In this document: positions 14,975 to 48,536 of the stretch, piece by piece
Position numbering within the stretch: the first letter of the stretch is position 1
Layout of the letters: each line of letters begins with the position of its first letter
Assembly (NCBI GenBank): GCA_043228905.1
Contig: JBHGNT010000014.1
Location: forward strand, 12,710,001 to 12,774,000
Direction of reading: 5' to 3'
DNA: 64,000 nucleotides
Source: Azolla caroliniana
Taxonomy: Eukaryota; Plantae; Polypodiophyta
Made by a program: the position numbers and the translations under genes
The notes under the pieces: generated by a model
What the model was told of the DNA's origin: nothing
The model's input: only the letters and a program-made list of their open reading frames with translations
Database searches by the model: none

Positions 14975-15343
14975 AAACACACAATTACATTAATAAATGT
15001 GCATATAAAACACTACTTACAATAGGTGTCACAATGGAGTATGGTCACCCACTAACTACACTACATGGGTAGTGGAACATGTTGAATTTTCGAATAGGCG
15101 TGTGACGAACACTCCACCAAGGAAAGAATCTTCGCGTCTTGCTCCAATAAAGAAAATTGCCACATTAGTACTCCCTTCAACTTTCCCAGATATGCTTTGA
15201 CTCCATGCCTACCATTAAATAAAAAAACATTGTGCATATCCCAATTATGACGCAATTCGCAATATCTCCGAAATAGGAAAATGATCTCCATCTCTTATTT
15301 TGGGTCAACCTGTGTAAATTGTGCAAACACCCACTATTTACGT

Positions 15344-16158
15344 TGTTGTAGTGTAGGTTGCACACTATGTGGAAATTATATTTTTGTCCCTCCGGATAGA
15401 GAATGGAGTGCTCGGTGAGAACCGGAAGAAAACGGCATACCGGCAAGGAGGAAAACGGCATACCGGAAAGGAGGAAAACGGCATACCGGCAAGGAAGAGC
15501 CGGATAAAGAGACATAAATGTAAAAAGAAAAGGAAATACTCACTACTGCGTAGGGCGTGATTCAAACTCTGCACCTCCACGTTGACAAACCCCAACCTTA
15601 CCATTACATTAACTTATCTTAAGTATTTTGAATATAGATTTAATACGTATAAGACCTTTATGTATGCATACCTTTATTAAAAGGTAAATCGTGTATTTTT
15701 TTAATATATGAAAAGGAAAAAACACGAGACACTAAAAATAACTCATGCACATCTAGCGTGCATGAGCCCTATACTTAGGAAATAAAAAAGCATCACATGC
15801 ACATTTAGTGGACATGAACACTTTTTGTAAAAAAAAAAAAAAAGCATGAAGCCATGCTTAGCTCTTCCTTCCTTATATAAGGAGGAGAGAAATATATAAA
15901 GGGTTGTTGATTATTTGGATTAAGTATTAATCAATAAAAAAAATTATTCGTGGGATTCACGATTTATACATCTACTTCTCTCTTAACACCCTAAGTACCA
16001 ATTAATATAGTATACTCGTGTGATTCACGAGTTTCTTATCTTTCTCTTCGCTATGTATTCATAATTAATCTCTATCTCACGAACTTCTTTCTCCTAGTCC
16101 AAGACCTCTGTGGTTCCCACCCGACTCACGCAACGATCCGGAGCCGAAAGGCACGACA
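15344..16158 (+). repeat. Gypsy-A 5' LTR
   Basis: Direct repeat of 21826-22640. Contains three copies of a ~21-bp unit AAAACGGCATACCGGMAAGGA and a TATATAA box near 15874. Confidence 0.95.
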
Positions 16159-16162
16159 CAGT

Positions 16163-16179
16163 TGGTGAACCCGACGTGA
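16163..16179 (+). promoter_or_regulatory. Primer binding site, tRNA-Trp
   Basis: TGGTGAACCCGACGTGA is the complement of the plant tRNA-Trp 3' end (...TCACGTCGGGTTCACCA). It lies 4 nt from the LTR. Confidence 0.85.
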
Positions 16180-16181
16180 AG

Positions 16182-18236
16182 ATGGGTGGCAAGGAGATGG
16201 AGGCTCAACAAGCTAACAATATGATGGCGATGTTCGAACGGATGCTTCAAGAACAACGCACGATGTCGGAGATTTCGGCATCAGTAGAGCGGCTCGTGCA
16301 ACGCAACGGGCAATTTAATGGTAAGGATGTGTCGCGATATTTGCAGGACTTCAAGGCGGAGATGCTCCGGTGCCGGGCTTCGGAAGGACTGCAAGTGACA
16401 TCCTTTAACCGGGTGGCGACCGACGGGCTTCAAGGGAGTATCCACGGGTTGCAACAACAAAATCCGACGTGGGAAGCATTCGAAGAGGTGTTAAAGACCA
16501 CGTTTGCCATCGAGGACTCCTCCAAGGCAACGCGGAGGGGATTCGAGGATTGGGTGGAAACGTCAGGTAAAGGGCTAAAGGTCCTCGAAGTGTTTTCGAC
16601 ATTCGAAAGTCGGTTCGGGAGGTTGTCCGCGAGAGATCAAACTATTCTTGCACCGGACAAAGTCATCATGTTTTTGCGAGCTGTGGACGTCCGGGACCGG
16701 AAAGATCTCGGAGTGCTTCTTGAGGACACGACCACCGAAAGCGGCCTCACCGAAACATGGGAAAGCGTGCGGGATATCGTCGCGCGGTACACGAAGAGGG
16801 GGCAATGGCTTGCCAACGAAGAAAAGAGGGTTTCGGAACCGATTCCGAAACCGAGAACGGGACTGGAAGACCATCAACCGAGGGCTCGGGAGATTACGGC
16901 CGAGAAGGGAGTCGACGCGTCTACGGTGGAGCAGCTGCTGAAGGAGATGGAGAATCTAAAGATCGCGATGGTGAAGAAGTCGGATGACCGCCCCACAAGC
17001 TCCAAATATACGGATCGACGGTGCATATGGTGCGATAGCGCTGAACACGATCGGAGGGATTGCGACGACCATAAGGAGGCGCTACGACGGGATCTCATCT
17101 ACTACGAGGGAAACCGGATTCATTCGATGGACTCTCGGAAGCCACTCCGACCGAACTTCCGGAAAGGCGGCATGAAGAAGGTGCTCGAGGAGGAGTTAGC
17201 GGCAAGAAGCAACTATGCGACAACCGTGGGAATATGTGTCGGGGAGTCAACGGGAGCGAAGGCGTCTTTCTGGCCGGAGGTGCTAGGAAACACCGAGAAA
17301 ACCGACTCCAACGATATCCGAAACACTGCGGAAGGCGTCCGGGAAGCTACGGGATGGGAGTGCCCTGTCGACAAGAATAGCATATACGCCCTGTGTCAAT
17401 TACATGAGGTGTATGTGGACGAGAAACGACGGCGCACGGAGGATGCGGCCGGACCATCGAAGATACCGGAAAGCTGGAACTCCGGAGGTAAGGGAAAAGA
17501 AAAGGCGACTCCGGCATTCAAGCTCGCCTCGGACATAGAACAACAAACCGACTTGAAAAGAGTGTTCGAGGAAAGAATCTTGGATAGCCGGGTAGATTTT
17601 TCGTTGCGGGAACTACTCGGAATAGCGAAGAAGGAGTTTCACGATCTTCTCGTGGATCTCGTGAAAAGGAAGAGACAAAGTACGGAGGAAAATGCTCCAA
17701 GGGTGAATGCAAATACCGTTTCAATGAACGACACCGAAGTGGAAGGCGAAATTCCGAACTCCCACTATACAAGGCCACACTGGGCACGTGCGACTACGGA
17801 GACTCCGGTCCGAATCGGCAACATCAAAGAACCCGTGCTAGCATTGATTGATCACGGATCGGAGATCAACTTGATGTCCAAGGAGTTCTACCGAAAGGGG
17901 AAGTGGCCTATAAACACCAACCATGGATGGAAGATTCGGGCAGCCACGAAAACGACAGAAGACCTATTTGCGGCTTGTCCGGATGTGACGGTAAAGATCG
18001 GGGATGTCGAAATTGACCAAAATTTCTTTGTGCAGGATGAGGTTTCACATTCTGTCATCCTCGGCCAACCCTTTATCACGGCTTCACGGATGGAGACGAA
18101 GGTGCTCGATAGTGGTGCGGCTTTTGCGCGAATTCGGAGCCAAAACGGAGGGAAATCCGTCCAATTCCTAACGGTGCCGGCAAATCACGAAAGGAACAAG
18201 AGGGAACTCTTGTCCCAAGTGAGAATGGATTTTTAA
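16182..18236 (+). CDS. gag-pro: Gypsy-A Gag-protease ORF
   Basis: First ATG after the PBS. Zinc knuckle CIWCDSAEHDRRDC; aspartic protease LIDHGSEINL...ILGQPF; ends MDF*. Confidence 0.9.
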   Translation: MGGKEMEAQQANNMMAMFERMLQEQRTMSEISASVERLVQRNGQFNGKDVSRYLQDFKAEMLRCRASEGLQVTSFNRVATDGLQGSIHGLQQQNPTWEAFEEVLKTTFAIEDSSKATRRGFEDWVETSGKGLKVLEVFSTFESRFGRLSARDQTILAPDKVIMFLRAVDVRDRKDLGVLLEDTTTESGLTETWESVRDIVARYTKRGQWLANEEKRVSEPIPKPRTGLEDHQPRAREITAEKGVDASTVEQLLKEMENLKIAMVKKSDDRPTSSKYTDRRCIWCDSAEHDRRDCDDHKEALRRDLIYYEGNRIHSMDSRKPLRPNFRKGGMKKVLEEELAARSNYATTVGICVGESTGAKASFWPEVLGNTEKTDSNDIRNTAEGVREATGWECPVDKNSIYALCQLHEVYVDEKRRRTEDAAGPSKIPESWNSGGKGKEKATPAFKLASDIEQQTDLKRVFEERILDSRVDFSLRELLGIAKKEFHDLLVDLVKRKRQSTEENAPRVNANTVSMNDTEVEGEIPNSHYTRPHWARATTETPVRIGNIKEPVLALIDHGSEINLMSKEFYRKGKWPINTNHGWKIRAATKTTEDLFAACPDVTVKIGDVEIDQNFFVQDEVSHSVILGQPFITASRMETKVLDSGAAFARIRSQNGGKSVQFLTVPANHERNKRELLSQVRMDF

Positions 18237-18290
18237 AGCGGACTGTTGCAGAGTGGGGAAGTGATAGTCCGAGAAGCCCTGATACCCCAC
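18227..18290 (+). promoter_or_regulatory. Predicted -1 ribosomal frameshift signal (G_GAU_UUU plus pseudoknot)
   Basis: Slippery heptamer 18227-18233, 6-nt spacer, stem GGACTGTTGC/GTGATAGTCC, loop GTGGGG complementary to CCCCAC (18285-18290). pol lies in the -1 frame. Confidence 0.75.
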
Positions 18291-18550
18291 ACAGGAAGAA
18301 AACTCTCGGAGCAAAACAAGTACGAATCGGCCCGGATGGGGCATCTACGTACACGGCCGTAACCGGAGGAATGAAGAAACAATACCGACAAGTGGAGGAT
18401 AAGTTACGATCGGCATCAATAATAAAAGAAGACGAAGAAATCGTGGGAGTGATCGAGGAAGTGTTCTATGGGAATACACTACAACGGCTTGAAGAGCTTG
18501 CGGAAGATAAAAGCCAAGGGAACCGGGTAGTCCCGGTGGAATAGGTCGAG

Positions 18551-21500
18551 ATGTACGAGATCGTTGCGAAAATGGGGCCGGATGCGCTCCGCAAAGAAGA
18601 AGCAATGGTAAGTACGAAATACAAGACCGTGGAGAAGAAGGTGAAACCGGCCGCGGGACCACTACCCGCCGATAGTGAACAAAAGAAGAAAGAAGTCTCG
18701 GGAGATCCGACACTTCGGAAGTCCGTGGATATCGGACATGCCTTCACAGATGAGACCCGGAAGAAACTTCGGATCGGTGGAGGTGGGTTCCTCTTACAAG
18801 AAGAAGAAAAACGGTTTCGAGAGATGTTGGAGCAACATGGCAAAGCATTCGCGTTCACATCGAGGGAGATCGGATGCATTGATCCAAAGATAGTGGAGCC
18901 GATGGTGATTTTCATGATTGATCATGTATCGTGGAACCTGAAGCCGATTCCGGTGCCACGGGCGCATATTCCGAAAGTCATCGACTTGCCCAAGGAGAAG
19001 GTGGCGATGGGGATTCTAGAGCCATCAAGTGCTCCGTACTCAAATCGATGGTTTACGGTTCCGAAGAAAAATGGGTCACTCCGATTCATCCAAGACTTGC
19101 AGCCGGTGAACAAGGTCACGATCCGGAACTCGGGAGTCGATCCGATAGTGGACGAATTCGCGGAAGCTTTTGCCGGACGTGCGATATACTCCATCGGGGA
19201 CCTATACTCGGGGTATGACCAATTCCAACTAGCCGTGGAGAGCCGAGACATCACTACCATGCGGACACCGATAGGACTAGTTCGAATGTGCACACTACCA
19301 CAAGGAGCGACAAACTCGGTTGCACATATGATGAACGCGATGAACAAGGTGCTTCGAGATTGCATCCCGGAGATAATGATGCCGTTTCTAGATGACATTC
19401 CGATGAAAGGATGCGCGGTGGAAGAAAAAGATGAGACTATGGATGATCGGGGATGCCGAAAGTTCGTGGTCGACCATATTCATGATTGCGAGAAAGTGTT
19501 GCGAAAGCTAGAAGATGTGCACCTAACACTTTCCGGGGAGAAATCGGCATTCGGGCAAGAAGAAATATTGGTGGTCGGACATCTATGTGGACCCTACGGC
19601 CGAAGACCGTCACCAACAAAGATCGATGCGATTCAAGCTATGAAGGAAGTATGTGAGTCAACATCGGAAGTCCGAAGGTTTCTGGGTGCGTGTGCATTCT
19701 ATCACATATGGATTCCGCACTATGCACATATAGCGGACCCGCTCTATCACTTGTTGCGGAAAGGTAAGAAATTCGAGTGGAAACCGGAACACACTAAAGC
19801 CATGAGGAAGCTCAAGAAGACACTATGGAGGGCGGAATCACTTAAGAAGCCAAGCTACGAGCGGCCAATCATAGTAACGGTTGATACAAGTCCAACCGGT
19901 ATCGGGTGGGTCATCAATCAAGCCGACTCAGATGGTTCGCGGTATCCGATCCGATTTGGAGCAAAGGTCCTCAACGAAAGGCAACGCGGATATGCACAAG
20001 TCAAAAGAGAATTGTGGGGAGTCGTGTCGGCGATAAAATCGGATCGGGATTATTTGATCGGAGCTGAAGTGGTGATCGAGACGGATTGTCTTCCGATACT
20101 CGGGATGATGCGGTGTTGTACGATACCGGATGTGGCTATGCTAAGGTGGATTGCATATGTCAAGTCACTTAATCCGGAGGTTCGACACATCTCGGGGAAG
20201 GACAACGCGGTAGCGGACATGTTATCGAGGGCGCGGTTTGAAGACGACATAACCGAATCAGATAATGAAGAAGTTTCCGAAGACTACTTCACGTCAGAAC
20301 ACATATGCCGAGTGAACGTGATCCGAGAATTCCGGGAAGAAGAATACGAGGGGGAAACCTTGATGATCGGGAAGATGCTACAAGAGGTCGAGGATTCAAC
20401 CAATGATAAAGAAAGGAGAGCCGAGATCCGAAGGAAGAAGAGGCAAGTCCAAAAGTTCTTCTTGGAAAACGGTTTAATATGGAGGGCGCCGAAAAGACCG
20501 GATGGGATACCACTTCGAGTAGTCGGGACGAAAGAGCAACGAAACCGGATAATGTCTGAGTTCCACGAATCCGATTGGGCTGGACATCGAGGAACATGGG
20601 CAACTTTTGTGAAAATCAAGCAAAGATATTGGTGGAAGAACATGTATAAAGATGTCGCGGAGTTCACAGAAAGCTGCGAGAAATGTCAAGTCTACTCCGG
20701 GGTCCGACACCGAGATGAGCTGCATCCGACATTCTCACCGACAATCAACTTCAATTGGATGGTCGACATTGTAGCTATGCCGACCGGGATTGGACAAAAG
20801 AAATACTTGGTGTTAGCTCGAGAAGATCTCACAAACCAAGTTGAAGGTCGAGCGCTTCGGAGGAAAACGTGTGCCGCAGTGTGCCAATTTCTTTTGGAAG
20901 AAGTGTTTTGTAGGTACGGCTGCGTAGGACAAGTGATTGCGGACCGGGGAGAACTCGACTCGGACAAAGCTAGGGGATTCTTCGCCAAACATGGAGTTCG
21001 GTTAACGTTGACAACGGCGTACAATCCGAAGGCCAACGGGAAGATCGAACGAGGACATAGTCCGATCGTGAAAGCACTTGCGAAGGCATGCGACGGAAGG
21101 GTGAAGGATTGGCCACAAATGCTTCCGTATGCACTATGGGCGGATCGGACGACGCATAGCTCCGTGACCGGTTACATGCCGGCAGAACTCATGACCGGAC
21201 AAGCACCGGTAATGCCAACGGAAACCGCAATCGCGACATGGACAATACTACCGTGGAAGGAAGAGATGAGCCGGGAAGAACTACTAGCGGTCCGGATACG
21301 ACAACTGGAGGGAAGACCGAAAGATGTAGCGGAAGCGTCACGCCGACAACAAGAAGCACGGTTCCGGAACAAAAGCCGGTTCGACACAAAGCACCGACTA
21401 CGACCGAGGAGGATTGAAGAAGGAGATTGGGTGATCGTCTATGATAGTAGCTTGGACCATCAACATACAACGATGCGGAAATTCGCGAAAAGGTGGTTCG

Positions 21501-21838
21501 GGCCGTACGAGGTTCGGAAGGTCTTCGACAACGGGACGTACCGACTGTCCGAGTTGGATGGAACAATACTACGAGTGCCTATAGCCGGGAAGCGGGTGAA
21601 GATTTTCAAGAAGCGGACCGACGACAAACCTTATGTGATCCAAGTCGAGGCCGACAACGAGGAGCAATCGGACGAAGACCACAATGATGCGGGAAGCGAA
21701 GAAAGTGGATTACAACTCATAGTCGACATAAGGGGAGAATCGGAGGGAGCTTCGGATGAAGTCGGATACGAAGAATCAAGAACTTCGGCACATACCGGAG
21801 GATGTGCGGGTTTGGAGGGGGCGAGTGTCGTAGTGTAG
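18551..21838 (+). CDS. pol: Gypsy-A Pol (RT-RNaseH-integrase); the -1 frame extends back to 18227 except for one TAG at 18542
   Basis: RT LPQG and FLDD; RNase H VDTS/ETDC/ADMLSR; integrase HHCC, D-D-E core, WFGPY; no chromodomain. Confidence 0.93.
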   Translation: MYEIVAKMGPDALRKEEAMVSTKYKTVEKKVKPAAGPLPADSEQKKKEVSGDPTLRKSVDIGHAFTDETRKKLRIGGGGFLLQEEEKRFREMLEQHGKAFAFTSREIGCIDPKIVEPMVIFMIDHVSWNLKPIPVPRAHIPKVIDLPKEKVAMGILEPSSAPYSNRWFTVPKKNGSLRFIQDLQPVNKVTIRNSGVDPIVDEFAEAFAGRAIYSIGDLYSGYDQFQLAVESRDITTMRTPIGLVRMCTLPQGATNSVAHMMNAMNKVLRDCIPEIMMPFLDDIPMKGCAVEEKDETMDDRGCRKFVVDHIHDCEKVLRKLEDVHLTLSGEKSAFGQEEILVVGHLCGPYGRRPSPTKIDAIQAMKEVCESTSEVRRFLGACAFYHIWIPHYAHIADPLYHLLRKGKKFEWKPEHTKAMRKLKKTLWRAESLKKPSYERPIIVTVDTSPTGIGWVINQADSDGSRYPIRFGAKVLNERQRGYAQVKRELWGVVSAIKSDRDYLIGAEVVIETDCLPILGMMRCCTIPDVAMLRWIAYVKSLNPEVRHISGKDNAVADMLSRARFEDDITESDNEEVSEDYFTSEHICRVNVIREFREEEYEGETLMIGKMLQEVEDSTNDKERRAEIRRKKRQVQKFFLENGLIWRAPKRPDGIPLRVVGTKEQRNRIMSEFHESDWAGHRGTWATFVKIKQRYWWKNMYKDVAEFTESCEKCQVYSGVRHRDELHPTFSPTINFNWMVDIVAMPTGIGQKKYLVLAREDLTNQVEGRALRRKTCAAVCQFLLEEVFCRYGCVGQVIADRGELDSDKARGFFAKHGVRLTLTTAYNPKANGKIERGHSPIVKALAKACDGRVKDWPQMLPYALWADRTTHSSVTGYMPAELMTGQAPVMPTETAIATWTILPWKEEMSREELLAVRIRQLEGRPKDVAEASRRQQEARFRNKSRFDTKHRLRPRRIEEGDWVIVYDSSLDHQHTTMRKFAKRWFGPYEVRKVFDNGTYRLSELDGTILRVPIAGKRVKIFKKRTDDKPYVIQVEADNEEQSDEDHNDAGSEESGLQLIVDIRGESEGASDEVGYEESRTSAHTGGCAGLEGASVVV

Positions 21839-22640
21839 GTTGCACACTATGTGGAAATTATATTTTTGTCCCTCCGGATAGAGAATGGAGTGCTCGGTGA
21901 GAACCGGAAGAAAACGGCATACCGGCAAGGAGGAAAACGGCATACCGGAAAGGAGGAAAACGGCATACCGGCAAGGAAGAGCCGGATAAAGAGACATAAA
22001 TGTAAAAAGAAAAGGAAATACTCACTACTGCGCAGGGCGTGATTTGAACTCTGCACCTCCACGTTGACAAACCCCAACCTTACCATTACATTAACTTATC
22101 TTAAGTGTTTTAAATATAGATTTAATACATATAAGACCTTTATTTATGCATACCTTTATTAAAAGGTAAATCGTGTATTTTTTTAATATATGAAAAGGAA
22201 AAAACACGAGACACTAAAAATAACTCATGCACATCTAGCGTGCATGAGCCCTATACTTAGGAAATAAAAAAGCATCACATGCACATTTAGTGGACATGAA
22301 CACTTTTTGTAAAAAAAAAAAAGAAGCATGAAGCCATGCTTAGCTCTTCCTTCCTTATATAAGGAGGAGAGAAATATATAAAGGGTTGTTGATTATTTGG
22401 ATTAAGTATTAATCAATAAAAAAAATTATTCGTGGGATTCACGATTTATACATCTACTTCTCTCTTAACACCCTAAGTACCAATTAATATAGTATACTCG
22501 TGTGATTCACGAGTTTCTTATCTTTCTCTTCGCTATTTATTCATAATTAATCTCTATCTCACGAACTTCTTTCTCCTAGTCCAAGACCTCTGTGGTTCCC
22601 ACCCGACTCACGCAACGATCCGGAGCCGAAAGGCACGACA
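21826..22640 (+). repeat. Gypsy-A 3' LTR
   Basis: TGTCGT...ACGACA, direct repeat of the 5' LTR. Confidence 0.95.
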
Positions 22641-24429
22641 ACGTGTCCAATAACACCGTGATAAAACTTGCCAAATTTGAGAAATATAACTCCAAATCTA
22701 ACAAGCAATCAGAGATTGTATAAAAGGATTCAAGTATTACCTTCCATTTGAATTGTACAAAAGAAGCAATTGCCCCCCATTGCTAGTCCATGAGGCTTTA
22801 GAGCTAATCCCAAAGGCAATCCCCCAATCAAATCTCTCCAAATGAAGATTTTTGTTACAAGTGGCAATTTAGAATGCCAACTACGTTTTGAGATTTGCCA
22901 TCACCCATGATAAAATTTGTGTATTTTCCATCCTTCTTCGGCCTTAGATGGTAGTCATCCAAGAGAATCAACAAAACGATGATACAAATGATTAGTAGTT
23001 ACTTTTAATGGTGTCTGTCCCCGTAAACACCAATCAATCAACGATTATTCTCCTGTTTGTAGAGGTAAAGGACTTTGCATCAAGGCAATATTTTGTAGTT
23101 GTTCCCAGATAAACACATAATTAGGTGGGATGCGTAATACTTGTAACACTTCAACAAACTCCAAAATTCTTTGTGATGGAGCCTCAACTATATCTCCCAC
23201 CACTTTTTGATCCCCAAACAAAAAAAAAGGTTAAACGAAGAGCACAATCTCTCCTTTCCAGGCCAACATAATAACCAAGAAGACACAAGTAACTCTTTTT
23301 GCAAATAGTTACAATCTTCTCTACAATATTGTGGTGGTCACATGGACCACACCTAGATTAGGCCCCTACCAAGCCCCATGCACCACACATAGACCACACC
23401 CAAATTAGGCCCCTACCAAGCCTCATGCACCACACCCAAACTAGGCCCCCACCAAGCCCCATAATTAGTAGAGCTAATTGGAGCGGGAGAACACCCTCCA
23501 CGCTAAGAGAGAGTCTATAAAATGTAACTTGAGACATAATGAAAAGGGGGCTATTCTTGAGAGCATTTCACATCTTGAGCATTTCACATCTTGGTGGAGA
23601 AGACGGGCCAAGCCACCCCAACTCACGACCCCAACAACGCCCGCCACGATGCAACACGACAACAACGACGGCAACGCAAACTCGATGAATCCGGGATTCC
23701 TACAACACAATCAAGGACACCAGCCCACATCGCCAATCGACCAACTGGTTCAATCTCTGTCCAACATCATTTTACAAGTTAACCATACTAACCAAGCCAT
23801 GTTGTCCTTTCTTTCAGCACGATCCGAGCCACAACAAAATCTCCCGGACTCTCGAGTTCGCCCAAAACCGTTCTCCGGCCTACCATCGGAAGATGTCCTC
23901 TCTTGGCTGGATCATTTCGAAATGGTGGCCAGTTACCACCAGTGGCCACACCCTCGGAAGGCAATGGAGATGAAGACACTCCTCGAGAATATCGCGGCAA
24001 CATGGCTTGTACAACAACCCGAAGAGACACGCAACGACTGGGATCTGTTACGAGCAGCCATGATTCGGAATTTTGCTCATCAAGACTCCCGCCAGACGGC
24101 CCTACAACAACTTGAGTCAATTACCCAACAACCACGCGAACCCATCACCCAGTTCGCGGTTCGTTTTGTGCAGATCCTACGCCGGGCTGACGCCAACATG
24201 TCGGAGGACATGAAGTTGTTTTTTTTCTGGTCGCGTATACGACATGACCTCCGCCGCCGTGTACGCGATCAAGGCCCGACGACACTACACGAAGCCATCC
24301 TCACTGCCCAACGCATCGAAGCTGCAGACGCGCACGACATGCACACACCAGGTAATCTCAGTCATGATCATACAAACACTATACCAGCCGTCACTCCCAT
24401 GGACATCGACATCCAGAACGCGCAATTAC

Positions 24430-29809: not shown

Positions 29810-32093
29810 ATTACGTGCCAAGCGTGCATTGCCCGAACGAGACAGCCAGGGACGCCCCAAATGTTTCTACTACAACAACTATGGCCACATTCGGCGTCAC
29901 TACCGAAAGTGGCAGAATCACCAACAGAAGCAGAACGTCCAATTGGCTGACGCTGCCTCCCTCTCTGAGCTCCCGGAAAACTAATGCGCGGGGTGCCGTA
30001 GGGAGAGCCGCCCCCGCACGTCCACGTCTCCACGTCCTCAACTTCTCCCGTTTCTCCCACGATCGAGCCGCCCCCGCACGTCCACGCCTCCACTTCATCA
30101 ACTTCGCCCGTTTGTACCACAATCGCCCGCCTCCAGCACACGACCCAAGAAGTTCTCCTCGACTCCGGCAGCAGCATCTCTTCCATCAGCGTAGATTTAG
30201 TCACCCAATTACAACTTCCCACGAGCCACGCACCGCCCATTAAAATCCTCTTCGGCGACCAACAACGGGTGTACCACTCACATACGCAAGTCAGGTGCAT
30301 GCTCACCATTAGTTCCGCCCAGATCCACCATCGTTTCTACGTCCTCCCGCGCCAGTTGTTCCCAATCACCTTGGGATGTGATTGGTTCCTCCATAGTCGA
30401 GCCTGTCTCGATTTCTACGCACAACAACTCATCCTCCCAAATCACATTCCGATCACGCTCTTCACTACTCCGCGGGATACCACCCACGTCAGCAACACAC
30501 AATACCTGATATCACCGGCGGAGCGCATCAACGACATCAGACGGCTCCTCGCCACCTTTCCCTCGTTGTCTACACCACCTGTAAAACCTCCCTCGGTCCG
30601 TTTTCCGATTCACCACACGATTCCTACAGGCAACACCCGCCCCATCAACGCAGCTCCCCGACGTCGCTCGCCTCTCGACCACGAGCGCATCGACAACACC
30701 GTCAAAACTATGCTCCAACAAGGGATTATCACACCTTCCAAGAGCGAGTGGATCTCGGAGCCACACATGGTAAAGAAAGGGGATGGTTCTTACCGCTTTT
30801 GTGTCGACTTCCGACAACTGAACCATGTCACCACCCATGACCGATATCCTCTCCCTCGTATCGATGACCTCCTCGACCAGCTTGGCAAATCAAAGTACTT
30901 CACCTCCCTCGATCTAGCCTCGGGATATTGGCAGATCCCGATGAATCCTCACGATGCCCACAAAACTGCATTCCGCACTAGGAAAGGCATTTTTCAGTTC
31001 ACACGGATGCCCTTTGGTCTATCTGATGCGGGGAGCACATTCCAGCGAATGGCTAATGCCATCTTCGATGATCTCATCACCCGCCGTGTCGTCATCGTCT
31101 ATCTAGACGATATTCTGGTACATACAAGCACTTGGGCAGAACACCTTCAAGTCCTTCGGGAGGTCCTAACTTGTGTTCAACGCTATCGATTGTAGCTGCA
31201 ATGGAAGAAGTGCCGATGGGGTAGTACGTTGTCGTGTTATTACGCAAGTGCGTGTGGAAACGAGGCGGGACCGCGGGGGTCTCGAACCAAAGAGCAAGCG
31301 AGGGAGGAGAGAGAGAGAGAACCGGCTACGCAGGACCGGGGATACACAGGGACACGGCCCTTCAGCACGGAGAACGCGAACGAACACCGACACAGACAGA
31401 TGCGAATGACTAAATATATATATTAAGAATGGCTAAACACGACTACAACCCTCGATGGGGCACAGGTTGGTTACAACCGAGCAGGCCGGCGAACAGATGC
31501 CGATGCCTGTTCGCTTCGACGCACAAAGGGGTAGCCGGTCGGAGGTGCTGCCGGAAGCACTCGGGCGTTCCTCGAAACAGCGCGAGCCTCCTCGGAACCC
31601 TGCACAGAAAAGCTAAGGAGCTCGAGAAGGAAGGAAACAGAGAGCGAAGCGTCCAGAAACGGTCCGACAGCACTTCGTCCTCTCCGCCCCCCCAGATCCC
31701 TGGAACAGCTCTTTCCCGCTCTTATATAGTCCGACGAGCAGGCCGTCATGTCAGCTTTATTCCCTGTCCCTTTCGAACAGGGATCCGCTCCGTTCTTCAC
31801 GCATCCGCGTAGTTACGCCGCCGACTCGTGCCGTCCCTTAGCTCGCGCGCGCGCCCTAAAAGACTGTTCGCGCGGTCTTTGTCTCCACTCGTGTTAGGGC
31901 CCGTTCCTGCCGATTATCCTCCTAACTCGCCTCTATGTTCGACTTGGAGCGTGCGCGCGTGAGGAACCGGTTCCCACGCCTTGGTCTGCCGATTCCGCTT
32001 ATGGACGGTTTTCTTCACGACATCCGCCCCCACCTAACCGCGCATCCTCCGGTATGCGCCAAGAGAGTTGGGACGGAGAAAACCGGCCCGTCT

Positions 32094-35000
32094 TCATTCC
32101 TCGCCCGTCTGTTCTTCCTCGTTTTCGGATCGTTCGTCACTGCTGACCAGGAGAGCCGGGTCTGGCTCGTCGTCGTGTCGCTTCTTGAACGCTTTGATCC
32201 GCTTCCCCGCAACCGGTATCGCCATTCTCGTGCCGTCGAGTTCCGCCAGGTGATATGTCCCGTTGTCATTGGCGCTCCGTACCACGTAAGGCCCGAACCA
32301 CCTTCGTGCGAACTTCCGTGTAGCTCGGTGCTGGTTGTCGAGGCTGCTGTCGTAGACGAGCACCCAGTCACCTTCTTCGATTTTCTTCGGTCGGAGCCGA
32401 TGCGTTCGGTCGAACCTGGCTTTGTTCTTTTTCCTCGCCACCCGGAGCTTCTCCGCAGCCAGTTCCACGTCCTCCGGTCTCCGCTCGAGCTGTCGTATGC
32501 GCGCGGCCAACAACTCCTCCCGGCTCATCTCGTCCCTCCAGTCGACCGTTGCCCACGAGGAGATCGTCCGTTCCATCGGCATGATCGGCTTCTGGCCGAA
32601 CATGAGCTCCGTCGGCATATACCCAGTTACCGAACTGTGCGTGGTCCGGTCTGCCCACAAAGCATAAGGTAGCAGCCCCGGCCAGTTACCGACTCGGCCT
32701 CCGCATGCCCGAACCAACGCCTTGACGATCGGTCCGTGTCCGCGCTCCACCTTTCCATTCGCCTCCGGATTGTACGCAGTGGTGAGCGAGAGCTTAACTC
32801 CGAGCCGGTCGAACAGCTCCGCGGCTTCTTCGGCGTCCAACTCCCCTCGGTCAGCCACGATCTTCCCGACGCACCCGTACCGGCATATCACGTCCTCGAT
32901 TAGGAACCGGCATACGGCCGCGGTCGTTTTGTTCGGAAGGGCCCGGCCTTCCACCTGGTTCGTCAGATCCTCCCGCGCTAGGACCAGGTACCGCATCTGT
33001 CCTACCCCCATTGGCATCGTCACCAGATCTACCATCCATTTGAAGTGGATGGTCGGAGGGTACGTGGGGTGAAGCTCGTCCCGATGTCGGACTATGGAGT
33101 GCATCTGACAGCTCTCGCAAGTTGTCACGAACCGATGCACGTCCTGGTACTGCCCCGGCCACCAATACTTCCCCTTTAGTTTCTCAAACGTAGCCCATGT
33201 CCCACGGTGTCCAGCCCAAGGGCTGTCGTGGTAGGCCGTCAGCAGCTCCTCCCGTTCTACCTTCATCGCCACCACCCGGAGCGGAGCGCCGTCCCTCTTC
33301 TTCGGGTGCTTCCATAGATAGCCATCCCGCAGAAAGAACCGGTACGCTTTCTTCCGGATCCGGTTGGCCTCGTCCTTCGTCCATGACGCATCGGGCGTCA
33401 TTGTCTTCAAAAACCCACCGATCTGCAGCCACTCCCCGTCGTACTTGCTCGCGTCGAAGTCGTTAAGCGCCGGAGTGCTTGTTCCGTCGGTTGTTACATA
33501 CGCAGTCTCGAAGAAGTCCACGCCGACCTCTTCGTCCTCCGAAACCATGCCGCCCTCGTCATCGAATCTCGCCCTTGAAAGCATGTCGGCCATGGCGTTG
33601 TCTTTCCCGGAAATGTGTCGTATTTCCGGGTCCAGGGACTTGATGTACGCTATCCACCTGAGCATTGCCAGGTCCGGCGTCGCGCATCCGGAAACCATGC
33701 CGAGAATTGGCATGCAATCCGTCTCTATGATTACCTCCGTCCCGATCAGATAGTCCTTGTCGGCCTTTACCGCCGAAACGATACCCCAGAGTTCGCGTTT
33801 AACCTGGGCGTATCCTCGCTGCCGTTCACTGAGGACCTTCGCGCCGAATCGGATCGGAAACCGATTGCCGTCCTCGTCTCCTTGGTTGACGACCCACCCG
33901 ATTCCGGTCGGACTCGTGTCAACCGTTATGTACACTGGGGTGCCCTTCCGGTAGACGGCCTTTCGGAGCGCCGGTGCTGCCGAAAGAGCCTCCTTCAGCT
34001 TCCGGACCGACTCCGTGTGCTTGTCTAGCCATTCGAATCTTCGCCCTTTCTTCAATAATCCGTACAGCGGCTCCGCGACGTGCGCGTAATGCGGGATCCA
34101 TATGTGGTAGAAGGCGCATGCTCCCAAGAATCTTCGTACTTCCGTGACCGAGCTGCATTCAGGCTTCATCGCGGAGATGGCTTCTATCTTTGCCGGAGAC
34201 GGTTTCCGGCCATATGGCCCACATAAATGTCCGACCACCATGATTTCCGACTGCCCGAACGCTGACTTCTCCCCCGAGAAGGTGAGCCTCGCATCCTCTA
34301 GCCTTTGCAGCACCTTCTCGCAGTTGTCGATGTGCGTCACCACGAATCGCCGGCATCCGTCCGGCCCGATCGTCTCGTCCTTCTCTTCTACCGGGCATCC
34401 CTTGATCGGGATGTCGTCTAGAAACGGCATGGTGATGTCCGGGATGCAGTCCCTCAGCACCTTGTTCATTGCATTCACCATGTGGGCCACCGAGTTGGTC
34501 CCTCCTTGCGGCAGCGTGCACATCCGCACTAGGCCGAGGGGAGTTCGCATCGTCGTAATGTCTCTGCTCTCCACGGCTAGCTGGAACTGGTCGTACCCTG
34601 AATATAGATCACCGACCGAGTAAATCGACCTTCCGGCGAAGGCCTCCGCGAACTCGTCTATGGTCGGTCCGATCCCTGCGTTCCGAATGGTCACCCTATT
34701 GACCGGTTGCAGGTCCTGAATGAAGCGCAATGATCCGTTTTTCTTTGGTACCGTAAACCACCGGTTCGAGTACGGGGCGCTCGACGGCTCGAGAATGCCC
34801 ATAACAACTTTCTGCTTCAACAGCTCCATCAACTTCGGGATGTGAGCTCTTGGAACCGGAATTGGCTTGAGATTCCACGGTACATGCGGTACTGTGAATA
34901 TCACCATCGGCTCTACGATCGTCGGGTCTACGCACCCGATTTCCTCCGGTGAGAATGCGAAGGCTTTCCCGTGCCTTCCGAGCATCCTCCGAAACCGGTC

Positions 35001-35582
35001 TTCCTCCACCGGCAGTAGGAACCCGCCCCCACCGATCTTCAGCTCGCGGAGCGTCTCGTTGGTGAAGGTGTGTCCTATGCAGGCCGGATCTCGTAAGCTG
35101 GGGTCCGATGCAACCCCTTTGATTCGGGATTCGCTGCCCTCCGGTAAGGGCGCCGCAACTGGCCTCACCTTCCGGTCCACAGTCTTGTACTTGGTGCTAA
35201 CTCGGGCCGTCCGTTCCGACTCGAGCCCTCGACCGAAGTCCGCGATGACTTCGTACATTTCTTCGGAACATACCGGTATCGTCCGGTCTTCGTTAAGGTC
35301 TTCTTCGACTACCTTCTCCAGCATTCCCAAGGTGTCGTCGAAGGAGACTGCCTCCACGGCTCCGTTGATTTCTTCGTCAGGGCCGAGAACTCCGCACGCT
35401 CGAAGTCTCCCCTCCGTCTTTGTTTTCTCTCGGCCGGCGATGCCGACCATCGCACATGCTCCGCTGCCGGAGAAGCAAATTTTCCTACCTATTGTACACG
35501 GTTTTATCGTACAGATGTGGGGTCTTCCCGGAGCATCCGGACTGTCGCGGCCCCACGCCTTGGCAGTCCTCTCTAAAAATCC
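32094..35582 (-). CDS. pol: Gypsy-D Pol (RT-RH-INT), open from the slippery site
   Basis: 1118-aa ORF closely similar to Gypsy-A Pol. The -1 frame is stop-free from 35582 to the ATG at 35450 (GFLERTAKAWGRDSPDAPGRPH...). Confidence 0.93.
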   Translation of the reverse strand, partial: GFLERTAKAWGRDSPDAPGRPHICTIKPCTIGRKICFSGSGACAMVGIAGREKTKTEGRLRACGVLGPDEEINGAVEAVSFDDTLGMLEKVVEEDLNEDRTIPVCSEEMYEVIADFGRGLESERTARVSTKYKTVDRKVRPVAAPLPEGSESRIKGVASDPSLRDPACIGHTFTNETLRELKIGGGGFLLPVEEDRFRRMLGRHGKAFAFSPEEIGCVDPTIVEPMVIFTVPHVPWNLKPIPVPRAHIPKLMELLKQKVVMGILEPSSAPYSNRWFTVPKKNGSLRFIQDLQPVNRVTIRNAGIGPTIDEFAEAFAGRSIYSVGDLYSGYDQFQLAVESRDITTMRTPLGLVRMCTLPQGGTNSVAHMVNAMNKVLRDCIPDITMPFLDDIPIKGCPVEEKDETIGPDGCRRFVVTHIDNCEKVLQRLEDARLTFSGEKSAFGQSEIMVVGHLCGPYGRKPSPAKIEAISAMKPECSSVTEVRRFLGACAFYHIWIPHYAHVAEPLYGLLKKGRRFEWLDKHTESVRKLKEALSAAPALRKAVYRKGTPVYITVDTSPTGIGWVVNQGDEDGNRFPIRFGAKVLSERQRGYAQVKRELWGIVSAVKADKDYLIGTEVIIETDCMPILGMVSGCATPDLAMLRWIAYIKSLDPEIRHISGKDNAMADMLSRARFDDEGGMVSEDEEVGVDFFETAYVTTDGTSTPALNDFDASKYDGEWLQIGGFLKTMTPDASWTKDEANRIRKKAYRFFLRDGYLWKHPKKRDGAPLRVVAMKVEREELLTAYHDSPWAGHRGTWATFEKLKGKYWWPGQYQDVHRFVTTCESCQMHSIVRHRDELHPTYPPTIHFKWMVDLVTMPMGVGQMRYLVLAREDLTNQVEGRALPNKTTAAVCRFLIEDVICRYGCVGKIVADRGELDAEEAAELFDRLGVKLSLTTAYNPEANGKVERGHGPIVKALVRACGGRVGNWPGLLPYALWADRTTHSSVTGYMPTELMFGQKPIMPMERTISSWATVDWRDEMSREELLAARIRQLERRPEDVELAAEKLRVARKKNKARFDRTHRLRPKKIEEGDWVLVYDSSLDNQHRATRKFARRWFGPYVVRSANDNGTYHLAELDGTRMAIPVAGKRIKAFKKRHDDEPDPALLVSSDERSENEEEQTGEE
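35517..35582 (-). promoter_or_regulatory. Predicted -1 frameshift signal (G_GAU_UUU_UAG plus pseudoknot)
   Basis: GGATTTT, 6-nt spacer, GGACTG/CAGTCC stem, loop GTGGGG complementary to downstream CCCCAC. Confidence 0.75.
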
Positions 35583-37690
35583 TCTCGGTTTTCGGAACCG
35601 AGGGAGTCGCGGTTACGTTCGTGGTTCAGCCTTACCGTCAGAAACTGGACCGAATGGCGCCCGTCTTGGCTTTTGACCCTTGCGTAGGCCGAACCATTGT
35701 CCAGCACCTTGGTCTCCATTCGCGCCGCCGTGATGTACGGCTCTCCCAGTATGACCGGATGCGAAGACGTCTCCTGCACGAAGAAGTGCTGGTCAATCTC
35801 GACGTCGCCGATCTTGACTCGCACATTCGGACAGGCCCCGTGCAGTTCCTCGGTGGCGCGCGTTGCTGCCCTTATTTTCCACCCGTGCTTGGTGTTGATC
35901 GGCCATTTGCCCTTCTTATAGAAGTCCATGGACATCAAATTGATCTCCGATCCGTGGTCCACCAAAGCTATCACCGGTTCCTGGACATCGCCGATCTTCA
36001 CCGGGGTTTCCGTGGTCGCTCGGGCCCAGTGTGGTCTCGAATAGTGGCTTTCCGCCCACTCGTCTCCCAGCGCCATGTCGTCTAGGTGCGTCGTCCGCAC
36101 TTCCACCGGTCTTTCCGGTTCTGTCTCCGTTGACAGCCTCTTCCGTTTCACCAAGTCCACGATGGAGTCGTGGAACTCCTTCTTGGCGATTCCCAGCACC
36201 TCTCGTAACGACAGCTCCACCTTGCTGTCGAGGATCCGTTCCTCCAGGACCTTTCGTAAGTCCGTGGTCCTTTCTATCTCCGTCCCCAGACGGTACCCGC
36301 CCTTCTGGGGTTTATCTTGCGTACCGGCCCCGCCGGCTTCGTCCCGTCGTGGCCCGGACCGGGTCTCGTATCGTTGTGAGGGCCCGGTCGTCCCGGGTTT
36401 CCCCACCCGCTTCTCTTCTACCAGAGCCTCGTAGTTCCGGCAAGCGGCTTCCACGAAGCCCGTCTTTTCCTCGACCGGGTCGCTCCACCCGGTCATCTCC
36501 CGTACCCGTTTCTTCGCACGGTCCGATTCCTCCCTTTTTAGCTCTGCACCGGCAAGGCCTTCCAGCATCGTCGGCCAGAATCCGGCTTTGCTTTCCCTTC
36601 GGGCCTCGCCGCCCCCGACTCGAATGCCGGCCGACGCCGAGTAGTGGACGGTTTCCGCGTGTCGGGCCGCCGCCTCTTCCATCACCCTTTTCATACCACC
36701 TCGCCCGTCGTTTCGGCTCAGGGCCCTTCGGGTGTCGCTGGCATGCACCCGTCCTTCCCACAGGTACACCACCCTGTCCCTCAGCGCCTCCGCGAAGTCG
36801 CCGCAGTCCTTCCGAATGTGGCCGACTTCATCACACCACATGCACCTGTTTCCTGCCGCCGGCCGTCGGTCACGAGCCGGTTCGCCACCTTCTCTTCGGG
36901 CTTGCGCGATTTGGAGGTCCTTTACCGCCCTCGTCAATTCCTCCAGCGCCGCTCCTCCGGTTGAGCCTCTGACTACGCCGGTCGAAGCCGAACCGGTTTC
37001 CAACCACTCTCGGGTCTCTTCCTTTCGCACCTGTGGCGCTGGTTCGAACTTCCTTGCTGCGACCGAGCCCGACCCGGTTACCCCGTTATCCGCCCATTCT
37101 CGCCGTTTGTCGAAACGGCCACAGACTTTCTTGACAGCCGCCCAGTCGGTAGTGAGCCCGTCTTCGGTTTCCAGCAAGAGGCCCACTTGCTCCCGATCCC
37201 GCTCGTCGACCGACTTGACAAACAGCAAGACCCGGCTCGTGTCCAGGATGGTTCGGTCGAGCGCCGAAAGGCGCGCAAAGTTTTCCTAAACTCCCGGAGG
37301 AGTGCCGACGCGTTCCTTCCCTTCCCCGGGGACTCCACCCATTCCATGAACCTTCGCTTCGAAAGCCGGAGCGCGTCGTCCAGCCCGTATTTCTCTAGGA
37401 GCCGACCTTCGAACTCCTCCCAGGTACGGCTCTCCGCCCGCACCTCGAGCACCTCCGCATGGATGCTCGGCATTGCCACTCGGGGAAATCCGGCAAGACG
37501 CCTTTCTTCCGGAATGTCCCGCATCAGCATTTCTGCACCGTAGGACGCCAGATACTTCGTGGCATCCCTCCCATCGAACCGGCCGATCGTGCCGACGACC
37601 GCCTCGATAGCTCTGTCGAGGGCACTGGTGCCCTCGCGCGCGTTTACCATCCGATCCACGGCCGAAGCCATGGCCTCTGCAAGATCCGAC
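35573..37690 (-). pseudogene. gag-pro: Gypsy-D Gag-protease with one frameshift near 37280
   Basis: Two overlapping ORFs (37078-37725 and 35573-37228) together align with Gypsy-A Gag-PR. CMWCDEVGHIRKDC; LVDHGSEINL; ends EDF*. Start is approximate. Confidence 0.85.
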
Positions 37691-40600
37691 CCCCTCATCT
37701 TCTGCTCTTCTGCCGCCTCTTTCACGTCGGGTTCACCAAAGATGTCGTGTTATTACGCAAGTGCGTGTGGAAACGAGGCGGGACCGCGGGGGTCTCGAAC
37801 CAAAGAGCAAGCGAGGGAGGAGAGAGAGAGAGAACCGGCTACGCAGGACCGGGGATACAGAGGGACACGGCCCTTCAGCACGGAGAACGCGAACGAACAC
37901 CGACACAGACAGATGCGAATGACTAAATATATATATTAAGAATGGCTAAACACGACTACAACCCTCGATGGGGCACAGGTTGGTTACAACCGAGCAGGCC
38001 GGCGAACAGATGCCGATGCCTGTTCGCTTCGACGCACAAAGGGGTAGCCGGTCGGAGGTGCTGCCGGAAGCACTCGGGCGTTCCTCGAAACAGCGCGAGC
38101 CTCCTCGGAACCCTGCACAGAAAAGCTAAGGAGCTCGAGAAGGAAGGAAACAGAGAGCGAAGCGTCCAGAAACGGTCCGACAGCACTTCGTCCTCTCCGC
38201 CCCCCCAGATCCCTGCAACAGCTCTTTCCCGCTCTTATATAGTCCGACGAGCAGGCCGTCATGTCAGCTTTATTCCCTGTCCCTTTCGAACAGGGATCCG
38301 CTCCGTTCTTCACGCATCCGCGTAGTTACGCCGCCGACTCGTGCCGTCCCTTAGCTCGCGCGCGCGCCCTAAAAGACTGTTCGCGCGGTCTTTGTCTCCA
38401 CTCGTGTTAGGGCCCGTTCCTGCCGATTATCCTCCTAACTCGCCTCTATGTTCGACTTGGAGCGTGCGCGCGTGAGGAACCGGTTCCCACGCCTTGGTCT
38501 GCCGATTCCGCTTATGGACGGTTTTCTTCACGACAACGTGCCTCCGCTTCCTTGGGTACGTCATCTCCTCCGACGGAATACAAATGGACCCGGAGAAGAC
38601 AGAAGCAGTCCAAAAATTCCCACGCCCCACCACAGTCAAGCAGCTTCAACGCTTCCTCGGCCTCCTCACGTTCTCTCTTCGTTTCATCTCACGGCTAGCC
38701 GACCTGTCAGCCCCACTACGCGCGCTCCTACAAAAAGACGCACCCTTCCTGTGGACCGAAGCCTGCGAATCCAGCTTCCTGCAGCTCAAGAGAACACTCC
38801 AAGCCTCTGACCTCCTGGCCCACCCTGATTTCACGAAGCCTTTCCATCTGCAGACGGATGCCTCCAATGTCGGCCTTGGTGCGGTCCTGCTCCAATCCGA
38901 CGACAACGACCAACTCCGCCCGATTGCCTACATCAGTCGGTCACTTACCAAAGCCGAACAAAATTACTCGACAACTGAAAAAGAGTTCCTCGCCATCGTC
39001 TGGGCATTCCATCGTTTCCACCCATACCTTCACGGATCAAATACATCAGTCGAAACCGACCATCGGCCATTGCTCTCCCTCATAAAGAAGGCTCATCCAC
39101 CCGGCCGCTTACTTCGTTGGGTTTTGGCGCTACAGGATTACACATTCACTCTGCGCTATCGCCATGGTCCACAAAACATCGTCACCGATGGATTATCCCA
39201 CATATCCTTTCAGGCGAACCAGATAACCTCCAACACAATCGATTTCCCCATATCCTCGTCCCAAATGGCCAACATGCAACAACACGACAAACAAATCCAA
39301 GATATCTGCCACCGCCTACGAGCTGAACCGACATCATCCCTCACCAAGCAATTCATGATCCAGGATAATGTCCTACTTTTTTGTCAAGTAGGCAAAGAAC
39401 CCTGAGTCTACATGCCTGAGCAACTACGCCAGTCTTACCTTCGTTTCTTCCACGATCACCCGTTGTCCGGCCACTTGGGTTTTCATAAGGTGCTCGACAA
39501 AATTCGTCGCAAATTCTATTGGCCTGGGCTACGCCACGAGGTCGCCTCCTACATCAAAGCATGCAACTTATGTCAGGCCATCAAATCACCTCAAGTGGCT
39601 CAAGGCCTCTTACATCCGATACAAGTTCAAGCTCCATTTGAAATCGTCGGATGGGACATTATGGGCCCCTTTCCCGAGTCACAAGGAGGGAACAAATTCA
39701 TCCTCGTCATCACCGAGTACTTGACGCGTTGGGCTGAGACGGCCGCTATCCCAGATGCAAAGGCTATGACCATCGCCTCCAAACTATTGGAGAAAATCAT
39801 CTTCCCCCACGGTTGCCCACTCCAAATCTTGTCCGATCGAGGACCCCAGTTCAACGGTGAGCTCCTACGCCTCGTTTCAACACAACTAGGAATCCAACAG
39901 TTATTCACGTCACCCTACCATCCCCAAACGAATGGGTTGACGGAGCGCCTCAATCAAACCTTAAAACAACAAATCTCAGCCTACATCGATCTGCTGCACT
40001 CAACCTGGGACCGAATCTTGCCCTTCGTTACGCATGCCTACAACACAACTGTGCAAGCCTCTACCCGCATTAGCCCATTTCGGGCCCTTTACGGAAGGGA
40101 CCCGCGCTTACCCCCAAAAGTGGCAGTCCCGCAACCAACCACACGACTCCACGCTGACGCAGTGTCTTGGTGGTCCCACCTACAACAACTCCAGCCCCTC
40201 CTCCGCAAAGCCATCACGAGCAACCTGCACCAGGCACAACTACGCCAAAAACGACAACACGATATAGGCCGTGTCGACCATCAATACCACGTCGGTGACA
40301 AAGTCCTCGTCTACTTCCCCATCCGTCGCCGTGGTCTCAGCGAATCGCTCATGCACCGATGGATCGGTCCCTTCGAAGTTCAAAAGCAGATACGCGACAC
40401 TACATACCTGCTCCGCCGCGCCTCCAACAACCGCTCTACCTTTGCTCACCAGTCTCGCATGAAGCCCTTCCATCAACTACCACCGCCCCCGCCCACACTC
40501 ATGCCTACGCCCACGCCCGTGTCATCCCCCCGTCTGGAACCGTCGTCCACGCCTCGTCGCGCTTCGACTGCACAGTAACTTTTTTTTTTACAAGGGGGAA

Positions 40601-48175: not shown

Positions 48176-48238
<63 letters not shown>

Positions 48239-48536
48239 TAAGACACTGAGAATACGCAAGGTAAAGTATATTAACAAAGGAGAAAGACTCAACATTGTAC
48301 AAGGTGGGAGGAGGGTGCTTTATATAGTCACCCTCTCTCTTCATTAACTACAAGACTCATGGAGCATGGGGAATGTGAAAGCTCATAAGTTATGTGTCAT
48401 AGAATATGATTCTATGACTCATACTAAATGCTAGAATACAAAGTGGTGACATAATGGTGACTCTTGACCATTGGAGTGTCTATTCACTCTCAAGGTGAGT
48501 TCACACACTAGACCAAGTTGAGCTTGATTCTCAACA
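43031..48536 (-). mobile_element. Copia-E: decayed Ty1/Copia element (Ale-like, tentative) inserted in the LINE
   Basis: LTRs at 48119-48536 (5') and 43031-43417 (3') with variable (GA)n. TSD TATAT/CATAT (1 mismatch). PBS TGGTATCAGAG directly adjacent; PPT GAGGGGGCG. Frameshifted Gag, WFVDSGAS, HFDVWGP, MDVKNAFL, YVDD, ADIFTKAL. Confidence 0.92.

What the first reader, a model, noticed from the sequence alone, without database searches (positions are those of the whole stretch)
15340..38539. Two diverged elements inserted at the same motif T-ACGT-G with 4-bp TSDs: possible sequence-specific integrase
Seen: the reconstructed empty sites are tatttACGTgtcc (Gypsy-A, +) and gtagtACGTgcct (Gypsy-D, -). 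Both duplicate ACGT within TACGTG, despite unrelated LTR interiors and different host contexts (AT-rich LINE vs Gypsy RT). Known: most plant LTR elements make 5-bp TSDs with weak preference; 4-bp palindromic preferences are known for some insect gypsy-type elements; ACGT is a CpG-containing bZIP/bHLH core. Inference from n=2: the lineage targets YACGTR, possibly in a methylation-dependent way.
Basis: partly seen in the sequence, partly recalled or inferred. Interest (0 to 1): 0.7.

Follow-up and report, generated by a model that had tools for sequence, protein, structure and literature searches.

The report
CpG-targeting Phygy-type plant retrotransposons
These two jumping genes and their relatives across the genome almost always land on a CG pair, not on the longer six-letter motif first proposed; this habit is already published for the moss Phygy lineage to which they likely belong, and a need for methylated DNA remains untested.

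Summary
Observation confirmed: elements A (15344-22640, +) and D (31230-38535, -) both carry 4-bp ACGT duplications. The lineage does have a sequence-specific target, but it is NCGN (mostly VCGB), not YACGTR. Genome-wide, NCGN follows 1143 of 1335 A-type and 1047 of 1156 D-type LTR ends (background 3.2%). ACGT is only the commonest 4-mer (414 of 1335), and YACGTR occurs at 3 of 65 paired sites. All 79 paired insertions have CG in at least one TSD copy. A Copia control shows 2 of 83. Neumann et al. 2019 already report 4-bp NCGN TSDs and a tRNA-Trp PBS for Phygy, and A and D match these; lineage by phylogeny was not tested. Likely mechanism: a PFV-like 4-bp intasome whose preference for a central YR step is narrowed to CpG. 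Methylation dependence is unsupported: no reader domain, and flank composition equals that of random CpG sites. The scan earlier noted NCGN TSDs in a fungal genome. Side finding: the Selgy-like Gypsy hosting D targets ATAT (22 of 34 ends), which I did not find described for plants.

The parts
15340..15343 (+). Element A left TSD (ACGT)
15344..16158 (+). Element A 5' LTR, 815 bp
16163..16180 (+). Element A primer-binding site, 18 nt complementary to the host tRNA-Trp(CCA) 3' end
16098..18236 (+). Element A gag ORF (stop to stop), DUF4100
18545..21838 (+). Element A pol ORF: RT, RNase H, integrase; no chromodomain or extra RNase H hit
21826..22640 (+). Element A 3' LTR, preceded by a G-rich polypurine tract
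22641..22644 (+). Element A right TSD (ACGT)
31226..31229 (+). Element D TSD (ACGT)
31230..32022 (-). Element D 3' LTR, 793 bp
32094..35612 (-). Element D pol ORF: RT, RNase H, integrase
32163..33455 (-). Element D integrase (431 aa as analysed): H2C2 zinc finger, D143-D202-E237 catalytic triad, C-terminal beta domain with GPY motif; nearest solved relatives are PFV and Ty3 integrases
35573..37285 (-). Element D gag ORF, DUF4100; shorter than its 717-aa closest relative, and the 5' part appears to lie in another frame (37078-37749)
37721..37738 (-). Element D primer-binding site (tRNA-Trp)
37743..38535 (-). Element D 5' LTR
38536..38539 (+). Element D TSD (ACGT)
23330..40860 (+). Host Gypsy E (Selgy-like; LTRs 23330-23588 and 40602-40860; tRNA-Ala PBS 23592-23608; about 4.84 kb without its two inserts; TSD ATAT at 23326-23329 and 40861-40864), into whose RT element D inserted
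24430..29809 (-). Copia B nested in E, 5-bp TSD ATTAC; used as negative control

Best explanation
A and D are two subfamilies of a non-chromovirus Ty3/gypsy lineage, likely Phygy, whose copies sit almost always in a 4-bp duplication centred on CpG (NCGN, mostly VCGB), likely because the integrase itself selects that step. Shown: 4-bp TSD; CG at the centre; T at position 0 and A at +3 strongly avoided; ACGT the commonest 4-mer but under a third of sites; no clear motif outside the TSD; exceptions are explained by later C-to-T decay. Inferred: as in the foamy-virus intasome, the 4-bp stagger kinks the target at its central pyrimidine-purine step, and this integrase narrows the general YR preference to CG by direct base contacts. 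Candidate contacts, untested: a Glu at the position aligned with PFV Ala188, and conserved residues in the C-terminal loop. The choice likely does not need 5-methylcytosine. The shared TACGTG of the two window copies is a coincidence on top of this rule.
For: Whole-genome counts: NCGN follows 1143 of 1335 A-type 3' LTR ends and 1047 of 1156 D-type 5' ends. In 120 fetched copies (the first 60 listed in each), 115 of 120 left flanks are NCGN and 110 of 120 VCGB, against 3.2% NCGN in 400 kb of evenly spaced background. Of 79 copies with both ends resolved, 65 have an exact 4-bp TSD and 0 a 3-, 5- or 6-bp one. All 79 have CG in at least one copy, and all 12 single-base mismatches are C>T or G>A in CG (7) or CHG (5) context. 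Copia control: 2 of 83 ends NCGN (read by eye). Phygy as published: 4 bp (100%), NCGN, tRNA-Trp 81% (PMC6317226). The PBS matches host tRNA-Trp over 18 nt. Gag relatives include Physcomitrium patens proteins (best 43% identity over 82% of the query, E 2e-181). The nearest solved integrase by sequence and by fold is PFV. PFV's consensus core is VYRB, and 4-bp-TSD retroviruses disfavour T at 0 and A at +3 and favour a central YR (PMC4422553). Flank GC and CpG density equal those of random VCGB sites (p 0.92 and 0.30). The neighbouring family E shows the same logic with a central TA (15 of 16 exact 4-bp pairs), which cannot involve 5mC.
Against: No phylogenetic test against named Phygy reference sequences was possible. 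The elements (7,297 and 7,306 bp) are slightly below the published Phygy range (7,656-9,968 bp). That the integrase itself makes the choice is inferred; no biochemistry exists here, and the model (pTM 0.48) has no DNA. Insertion flanks are more often repetitive than random VCGB sites (98 of 120 vs 390 of 600; locus bootstrap difference 3-33 points). That would fit a pull towards methylated DNA, although the Copia control is as high (27 of 30) and selection against genic insertions gives the same pattern. About 10-14% of genome-wide ends are not NCGN; I checked the causes (decay, variant PBS junctions) only in the listed and fetched subsets.
Confidence: 0.8

Rival explanations
1. The integrase (or a partner) prefers methylated CpG, which steers copies into already silenced transposon-rich DNA.
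For: Strict CpG centre. Insertion flanks are repeat-enriched relative to random VCGB sites (82% vs 65%). TSD copies decay in CG and CHG contexts, so these sites are methylated at least after insertion. A 1992 paper on CpG methylation and retroviral integration in vitro exists (title seen only, in a reference list).
Against: No chromodomain, MBD, SRA or CXXC hit in either pol or gag. Flank GC and CpG density match random CpG sites. The Copia control is equally repeat-enriched (27 of 30). The decay happened after duplication and says nothing about the state at insertion. Drosophila ZAM targets CGCGCg through its integrase (PMC2527525, abstract) in a host with little CpG methylation (recalled).
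Confidence: 0.15
2. The lineage targets the hexamer YACGTR (bZIP/bHLH-like core).
For: Both window copies have it. ACGT is the most enriched TSD class (35 observed vs 6.7 expected among 115 NCGN sites).
Against: ACGT is 414 of 1335 ends genome-wide. YACGTR is 3 of 65 paired sites, and 3 of 18 among ACGT sites. No strong signal outside the TSD (smallest p 0.002 over ten flank positions).
Confidence: 0.02
3. The CG centre is an artefact of LTR boundary calling or of genome composition.
For: The elements are themselves CpG-rich and often nested in CpG-rich repeats.
Against: The TSDs differ from copy to copy and match on both sides (65 of 79 exact, 11 different 4-mers). Copia B in the same kind of flanks shows 2 of 83.
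Confidence: 0.01

Closest known systems
Phygy lineage, non-chromovirus Ty3/gypsy (Neumann et al. 2019, PMC6317226; passages, section 9 and supplementary file 3 read)
   Same: 4-bp TSD, NCGN preference, tRNA-Trp PBS, no chromodomain, no extra RNase H, coding region filling the interior; gag relatives in P. patens.
   Different: Slightly shorter (7.3 kb vs 7.66-9.97 kb). The host was not identified (523 Mb assembly, 41.6% GC in my background sample). The motif is refined here to VCGB with an ACGT bias; the paper gives only NCGN.
Prototype foamy virus integrase and other 4-bp-TSD retroviruses (Serrao et al. 2015, PMC4422553; passages and section 6 read)
   Same: 4-bp stagger, central YR step, T at 0 and A at +3 disfavoured (VYRB); nearest solved structure by sequence and fold.
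   Different: The retroviral preference is weak (YR raised 63% over background), whereas here CG is near-obligatory. The residue aligned with PFV Ala188 is Glu (59 of 61 aligned sequences).
Ginger1 DNA transposons (Bao et al. 2010, PMC2836005; passages read)
   Same: Gypsy-like integrase placed near Athila/Tat, TGTNR termini, 4-bp TSD with a central CG (CCGG 75%, CCGT/ACGG 24%).
   Different: DNA transposons of animals with terminal inverted repeats; CCGG-dominated rather than ACGT-biased.
Drosophila errantiviruses: ZAM (CGCG), gypsy and Idefix subgroups (TATA, ATAT) (PMC2527525 abstract; PMC5408687 passages)
   Same: Sequence-specific palindromic 4-bp targets chosen by a gypsy integrase.
   Different: Different lineage, alternating-repeat targets, AGT...AnT LTR ends.

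Membership tests
Phygy | RT/RH/INT phylogeny within the Phygy clade (the defining criterion) | not testable with these tools
   No named Phygy reference sequence was returned by any search. Indirect only: gag hits P. patens proteins and pol hits Riccia proteins at up to 64% identity.
Phygy | Ty3/gypsy domain order RT-RH-INT | tested here: met
Phygy | No chromodomain, no additional RNase H | tested here: met
   No such Pfam hit at E<=0.001 in either pol
Phygy | 4-bp TSD | tested here: met
   65 of 79 exact 4-bp, 0 of 79 5-bp
Phygy | NCGN target preference | tested here: met
Phygy | tRNA-Trp PBS | tested here: met
   18-nt match to ARAGORN-called tRNA-Trp genes
Phygy | Length 7,656-9,968 bp (descriptive; the paper calls size relatively insignificant for classification) | tested here: not met
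   7,297 and 7,306 bp; most fetched full copies are 6.6-7.5 kb
TatI (also 4-bp TSD, tRNA-Trp) | Additional archaeal-type RNase H domain | tested here: not met
   No second RNase H hit; feature from supplementary file 3
Chromovirus (Tcn1 and others) | Chromodomain at the integrase C-terminus | tested here: not met
Selgy (host element E only) | About 5 kb, 4-bp TSD, tRNA-Ala PBS, no chromodomain | tested here: met
   4,790-4,846 bp in 13 of 16 paired copies; 15 of 16 exact 4-bp TSD; PBS 16 of 17 match to tRNA-Ala; table
Selgy (host element E only) | Phylogeny within the Selgy clade | not tested
   One search returned unnamed close relatives and arthropod proteins at 34-45%; no named Selaginella protein among the 120 listed

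The most novel reading that the evidence does not exclude
A deep clade of 4-bp integrases (Phygy in non-seed plants, Ginger1 in animals, related fungal elements) reads CpG directly and prefers it methylated, giving a chromodomain-free route to target silenced DNA, while its neighbour, the Selgy-like family, has retuned the same active site to TpA (ATAT), a second sequence-specific plant gypsy lineage.
Probability: 0.15. Interest if true: 0.65.

Novelty: new member of a known kind. Interest (0 to 1): 0.22.

Why it matters
The core result is a known property seen in another genome, so its value is confirmatory. It does sharpen NCGN to VCGB and ties it to the foamy-virus VYRB rule. Two nested families with near-strict but different central steps (CG vs TA) would be a convenient natural pair for asking which integrase residues set the central dinucleotide. 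If methylation dependence were shown, it would be a new way for a plant retrotransposon to find heterochromatin without a chromodomain.

Tried and rejected
YACGTR and a bZIP/bHLH-core target were rejected (3 of 65). An extended flank motif was looked for at 10 positions on each side with symmetrised counts; only weak deviations appeared. A methyl-reader domain was not found. The context test for methylation was inconclusive: repeat status was judged by BLAST against only 1.6 Mb of fetched DNA that is itself enriched for insertion loci, and selection confounds it. A possible age effect on the ACGT share (3 of 24 youngest full copies are ACGT/ACGT) rests on too few copies to call. The first D-family end calling failed and was redone. 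Of 120 fetched copies, 41 were left out of the paired count: 26 with no right end resolved and 15 dropped by hand (variant-PBS 5' LTRs, miscalled ends, ends belonging to another copy; listed). The ESM Atlas gave only generic gypsy/GIN1 integrase clusters. The AlphaFold model gave good domains but an unreliable domain arrangement (pTM 0.48; full-length rmsd about 20 A to PFV), so no contact residues were read from it. Vendrell-Mir 2020 (PMC7466625, passages) has no TSD data. Kitamura 1992 is not held. Earlier-finding look-ups by words and by sequence gave nothing relevant.

Full report
Observation. Self-BLAST and junction reading give element A at 15344-22640 (+) with 815-bp LTRs differing at 10 sites, and element D at 31230-38535 (-) with 793-bp LTRs differing at 2 sites. 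Both encode a DUF4100 gag and an RT-RNase H-integrase pol with no chromodomain or second RNase H hit. The LTR interiors do not align but the pol proteins are 67% identical, so these are two subfamilies of one lineage. Both primer-binding sites match the 3' end of host tRNA-Trp(CCA) genes over 18 nt. A lies in a LINE-like remnant (weak zf-RVT hit). D lies in the RT of another Gypsy, called E here.

Genome-wide test. I searched the own genome with LTR-end patterns carrying one guard letter that removes most internal junctions, and also an unbiased share of true flanks. A-type 3' ends: 1335, of which 1143 are followed by NCGN and 414 by ACGT. D-type 5' ends: 1156, of which 1047 are NCGN. For the narrow A subfamily, 99 of the first 100 listed of 234 left ends have CG at the TSD centre (read by eye). 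The denominators still contain some variant PBS junctions and decayed TSDs. I fetched the first 60 listed copies of each evenly spaced 10-kb background stretches. Of 120 left flanks, 115 are NCGN, 110 VCGB and 35 ACGT; NCGN is 3.2% of background 4-mers. Within NCGN, classes with T first or A last are depleted (5 observed, about 64 expected) and ACGT is enriched 5.3-fold. Both ends were resolved for 79 copies (41 left out, see Tried and rejected): 65 have an exact 4-bp TSD and none a 3-, 5- or 6-bp one. YACGTR occurs at 3 of 65 sites, and at 3 of the 18 ACGT sites. Positions outside the TSD show only weak deviations. Of the 14 imperfect pairs, 12 differ by one base, always C>T or G>A in CG (7) or CHG (5) context; 2 differ at several bases; all 79 have CG in at least one copy. 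The rule at insertion is therefore close to 100% CpG, later eroded by decay of methylated cytosines (inference). The Copia nested in the same window is the control: 2 of 83 ends are NCGN (read by eye).

What is known. Neumann et al. 2019 (PMC6317226; passages, section 9 and supplementary file 3 read) state that Phygy elements have an insertion preference for NCGN, unlike the other plant lineages, and list 186 elements with 4-bp TSD (100%), tRNA-Trp PBS (81%) and 7,656-9,968 bp. A and D meet every feature I could test except length (7.3 kb), which the paper calls relatively insignificant for classification. The defining phylogeny could not be run without named references. Gag relatives include P. 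patens, Riccia and Adiantum proteins, and the named pol relatives are Riccia proteins. Jedlicka et al. 2019 (PMC6911290, passages) also report GC-rich centres in 4-bp TSDs. CG-centred 4-bp TSDs are known for Ginger1 (PMC2836005, passages), and CGCG targeting for ZAM (PMC2527525, abstract; PMC5408687, passages). A search for NCGN with retrotransposon returned 3 papers, of which only Neumann is on topic by title. I found no mechanistic or methylation study of Phygy targeting in the search listings. Additional file 1 of Neumann (per-element TSDs) was not seen and may already hold the VCGB detail and the Selgy TSDs.

Mechanism. The D integrase keeps the H2C2 finger and the D143-D202-E237 triad. 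Its nearest solved relative by sequence (E 2e-21) and by fold (E 1e-20; model pLDDT 80, pTM 0.48) is foamy-virus integrase, then Ty3. For PFV the consensus core is VYRB, the target is bent so that the central YR step unstacks, and 4-bp-TSD retroviruses avoid T at 0 and A at +3 (PMC4422553, passages and section 6). VCGB is this pattern with YR fixed to CG. I infer that the integrase does the selecting, by bending plus base contacts. In the HMMER alignment the residue three after the second catalytic Asp, aligned with PFV Ala188, is Glu (59 of 61 sequences), where retroviruses have small neutral residues. It and the conserved C-terminal loop (Q375, H376, K381, R385) are candidates only; Ala188 in PFV contacts bases outside the TSD, so the Glu need not explain the centre.

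Methylation. Not directly testable here. The 400-bp host flanks of insertions have the same GC (0.49) and CpG density as flanks of random VCGB sites (p 0.92 and 0.30) and differ from random positions, so CpG availability explains their composition. They are more often repetitive than random VCGB sites (98 of 120 vs 390 of 600; bootstrap by locus 3-33 points). That fits the methylation idea, but the Copia control is as high (27 of 30), and selection against genic copies predicts the same. I leave it at about 15%.

Side result. Host element E (23330-40860, about 4.84 kb net) has a tRNA-Ala PBS (16 of 17), no chromodomain hit and a 4-bp ATAT TSD, matching the Selgy description. Of its 34 LTR ends found, 22 are followed by ATAT, 5 by another NTAN and 7 look internal or rearranged (read by eye); ATAT is 0.76% of background. 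I fetched 20 of the 34, chosen among ends followed by ATAT, GTAT or CTAT; 16 had a left end, 15 matched exactly over 4 bp, and 12 were ATAT on both sides. Neumann names Phygy as the only exception to variable TSDs, so this may be unreported; my check was limited to the listing of 14 papers and passages of two of them.

Verdict. Interest 0.22.

Noticed in passing
window 23330-40860 (element E) and loci L193-L242: Selgy-like Gypsy family with a strong ATAT target preference: 22 of 34 LTR ends followed by ATAT, 15 of 16 paired copies with an exact 4-bp TSD centred on TA, against 0.76% background. Its flanks are AT-rich and mostly non-repetitive. Its closest named integrase relatives among the 120 listed are from arthropods (34-45% identity). 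Possibly a second sequence-specific plant gypsy lineage.
   Followed up: partly
L008, L042, L106, L114 and others: The LTR termini TG...CA create CHG contexts with the outer TSD bases, so later decay turns outer G/C into A/T in one TSD copy; this can inflate ACGT in single-flank counts of older copies.
   Followed up: partly
L043 (G000:C4:4353882-4363881): An A-type copy inserted into the CpG of another element's tRNA-Trp primer-binding site.
   Followed up: no
window 24425-29814: Copia B has a 5-bp ATTAC TSD, and its empty site happens to contain TACGTG too, off register: a local example of how often the hexamer turns up by chance.
   Followed up: yes
G000:C8:17796786-17823370 and C16:4989496-5105657: Long arrays of tRNA-Trp-like 3' arms, about 1.2 kb apart on C8: tandem tRNA gene clusters or a tRNA-containing repeat.
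   Followed up: no
positions on C1-C2: Many PBS sites lie only about 2.5-2.9 kb from an A-type 3' LTR end, suggesting an abundant short non-autonomous derivative sharing A's LTR end.
   Followed up: no
window 43031-48537: A second, older Copia (LTRs about 90% identical, pol in several broken frames).
   Followed up: no
C1:20988272, C2:15621035, C2:17258534: The same 13-base right flank recurs at several loci: repeated hits to one site in a multicopy host, or copies duplicated with their host.
   Followed up: no
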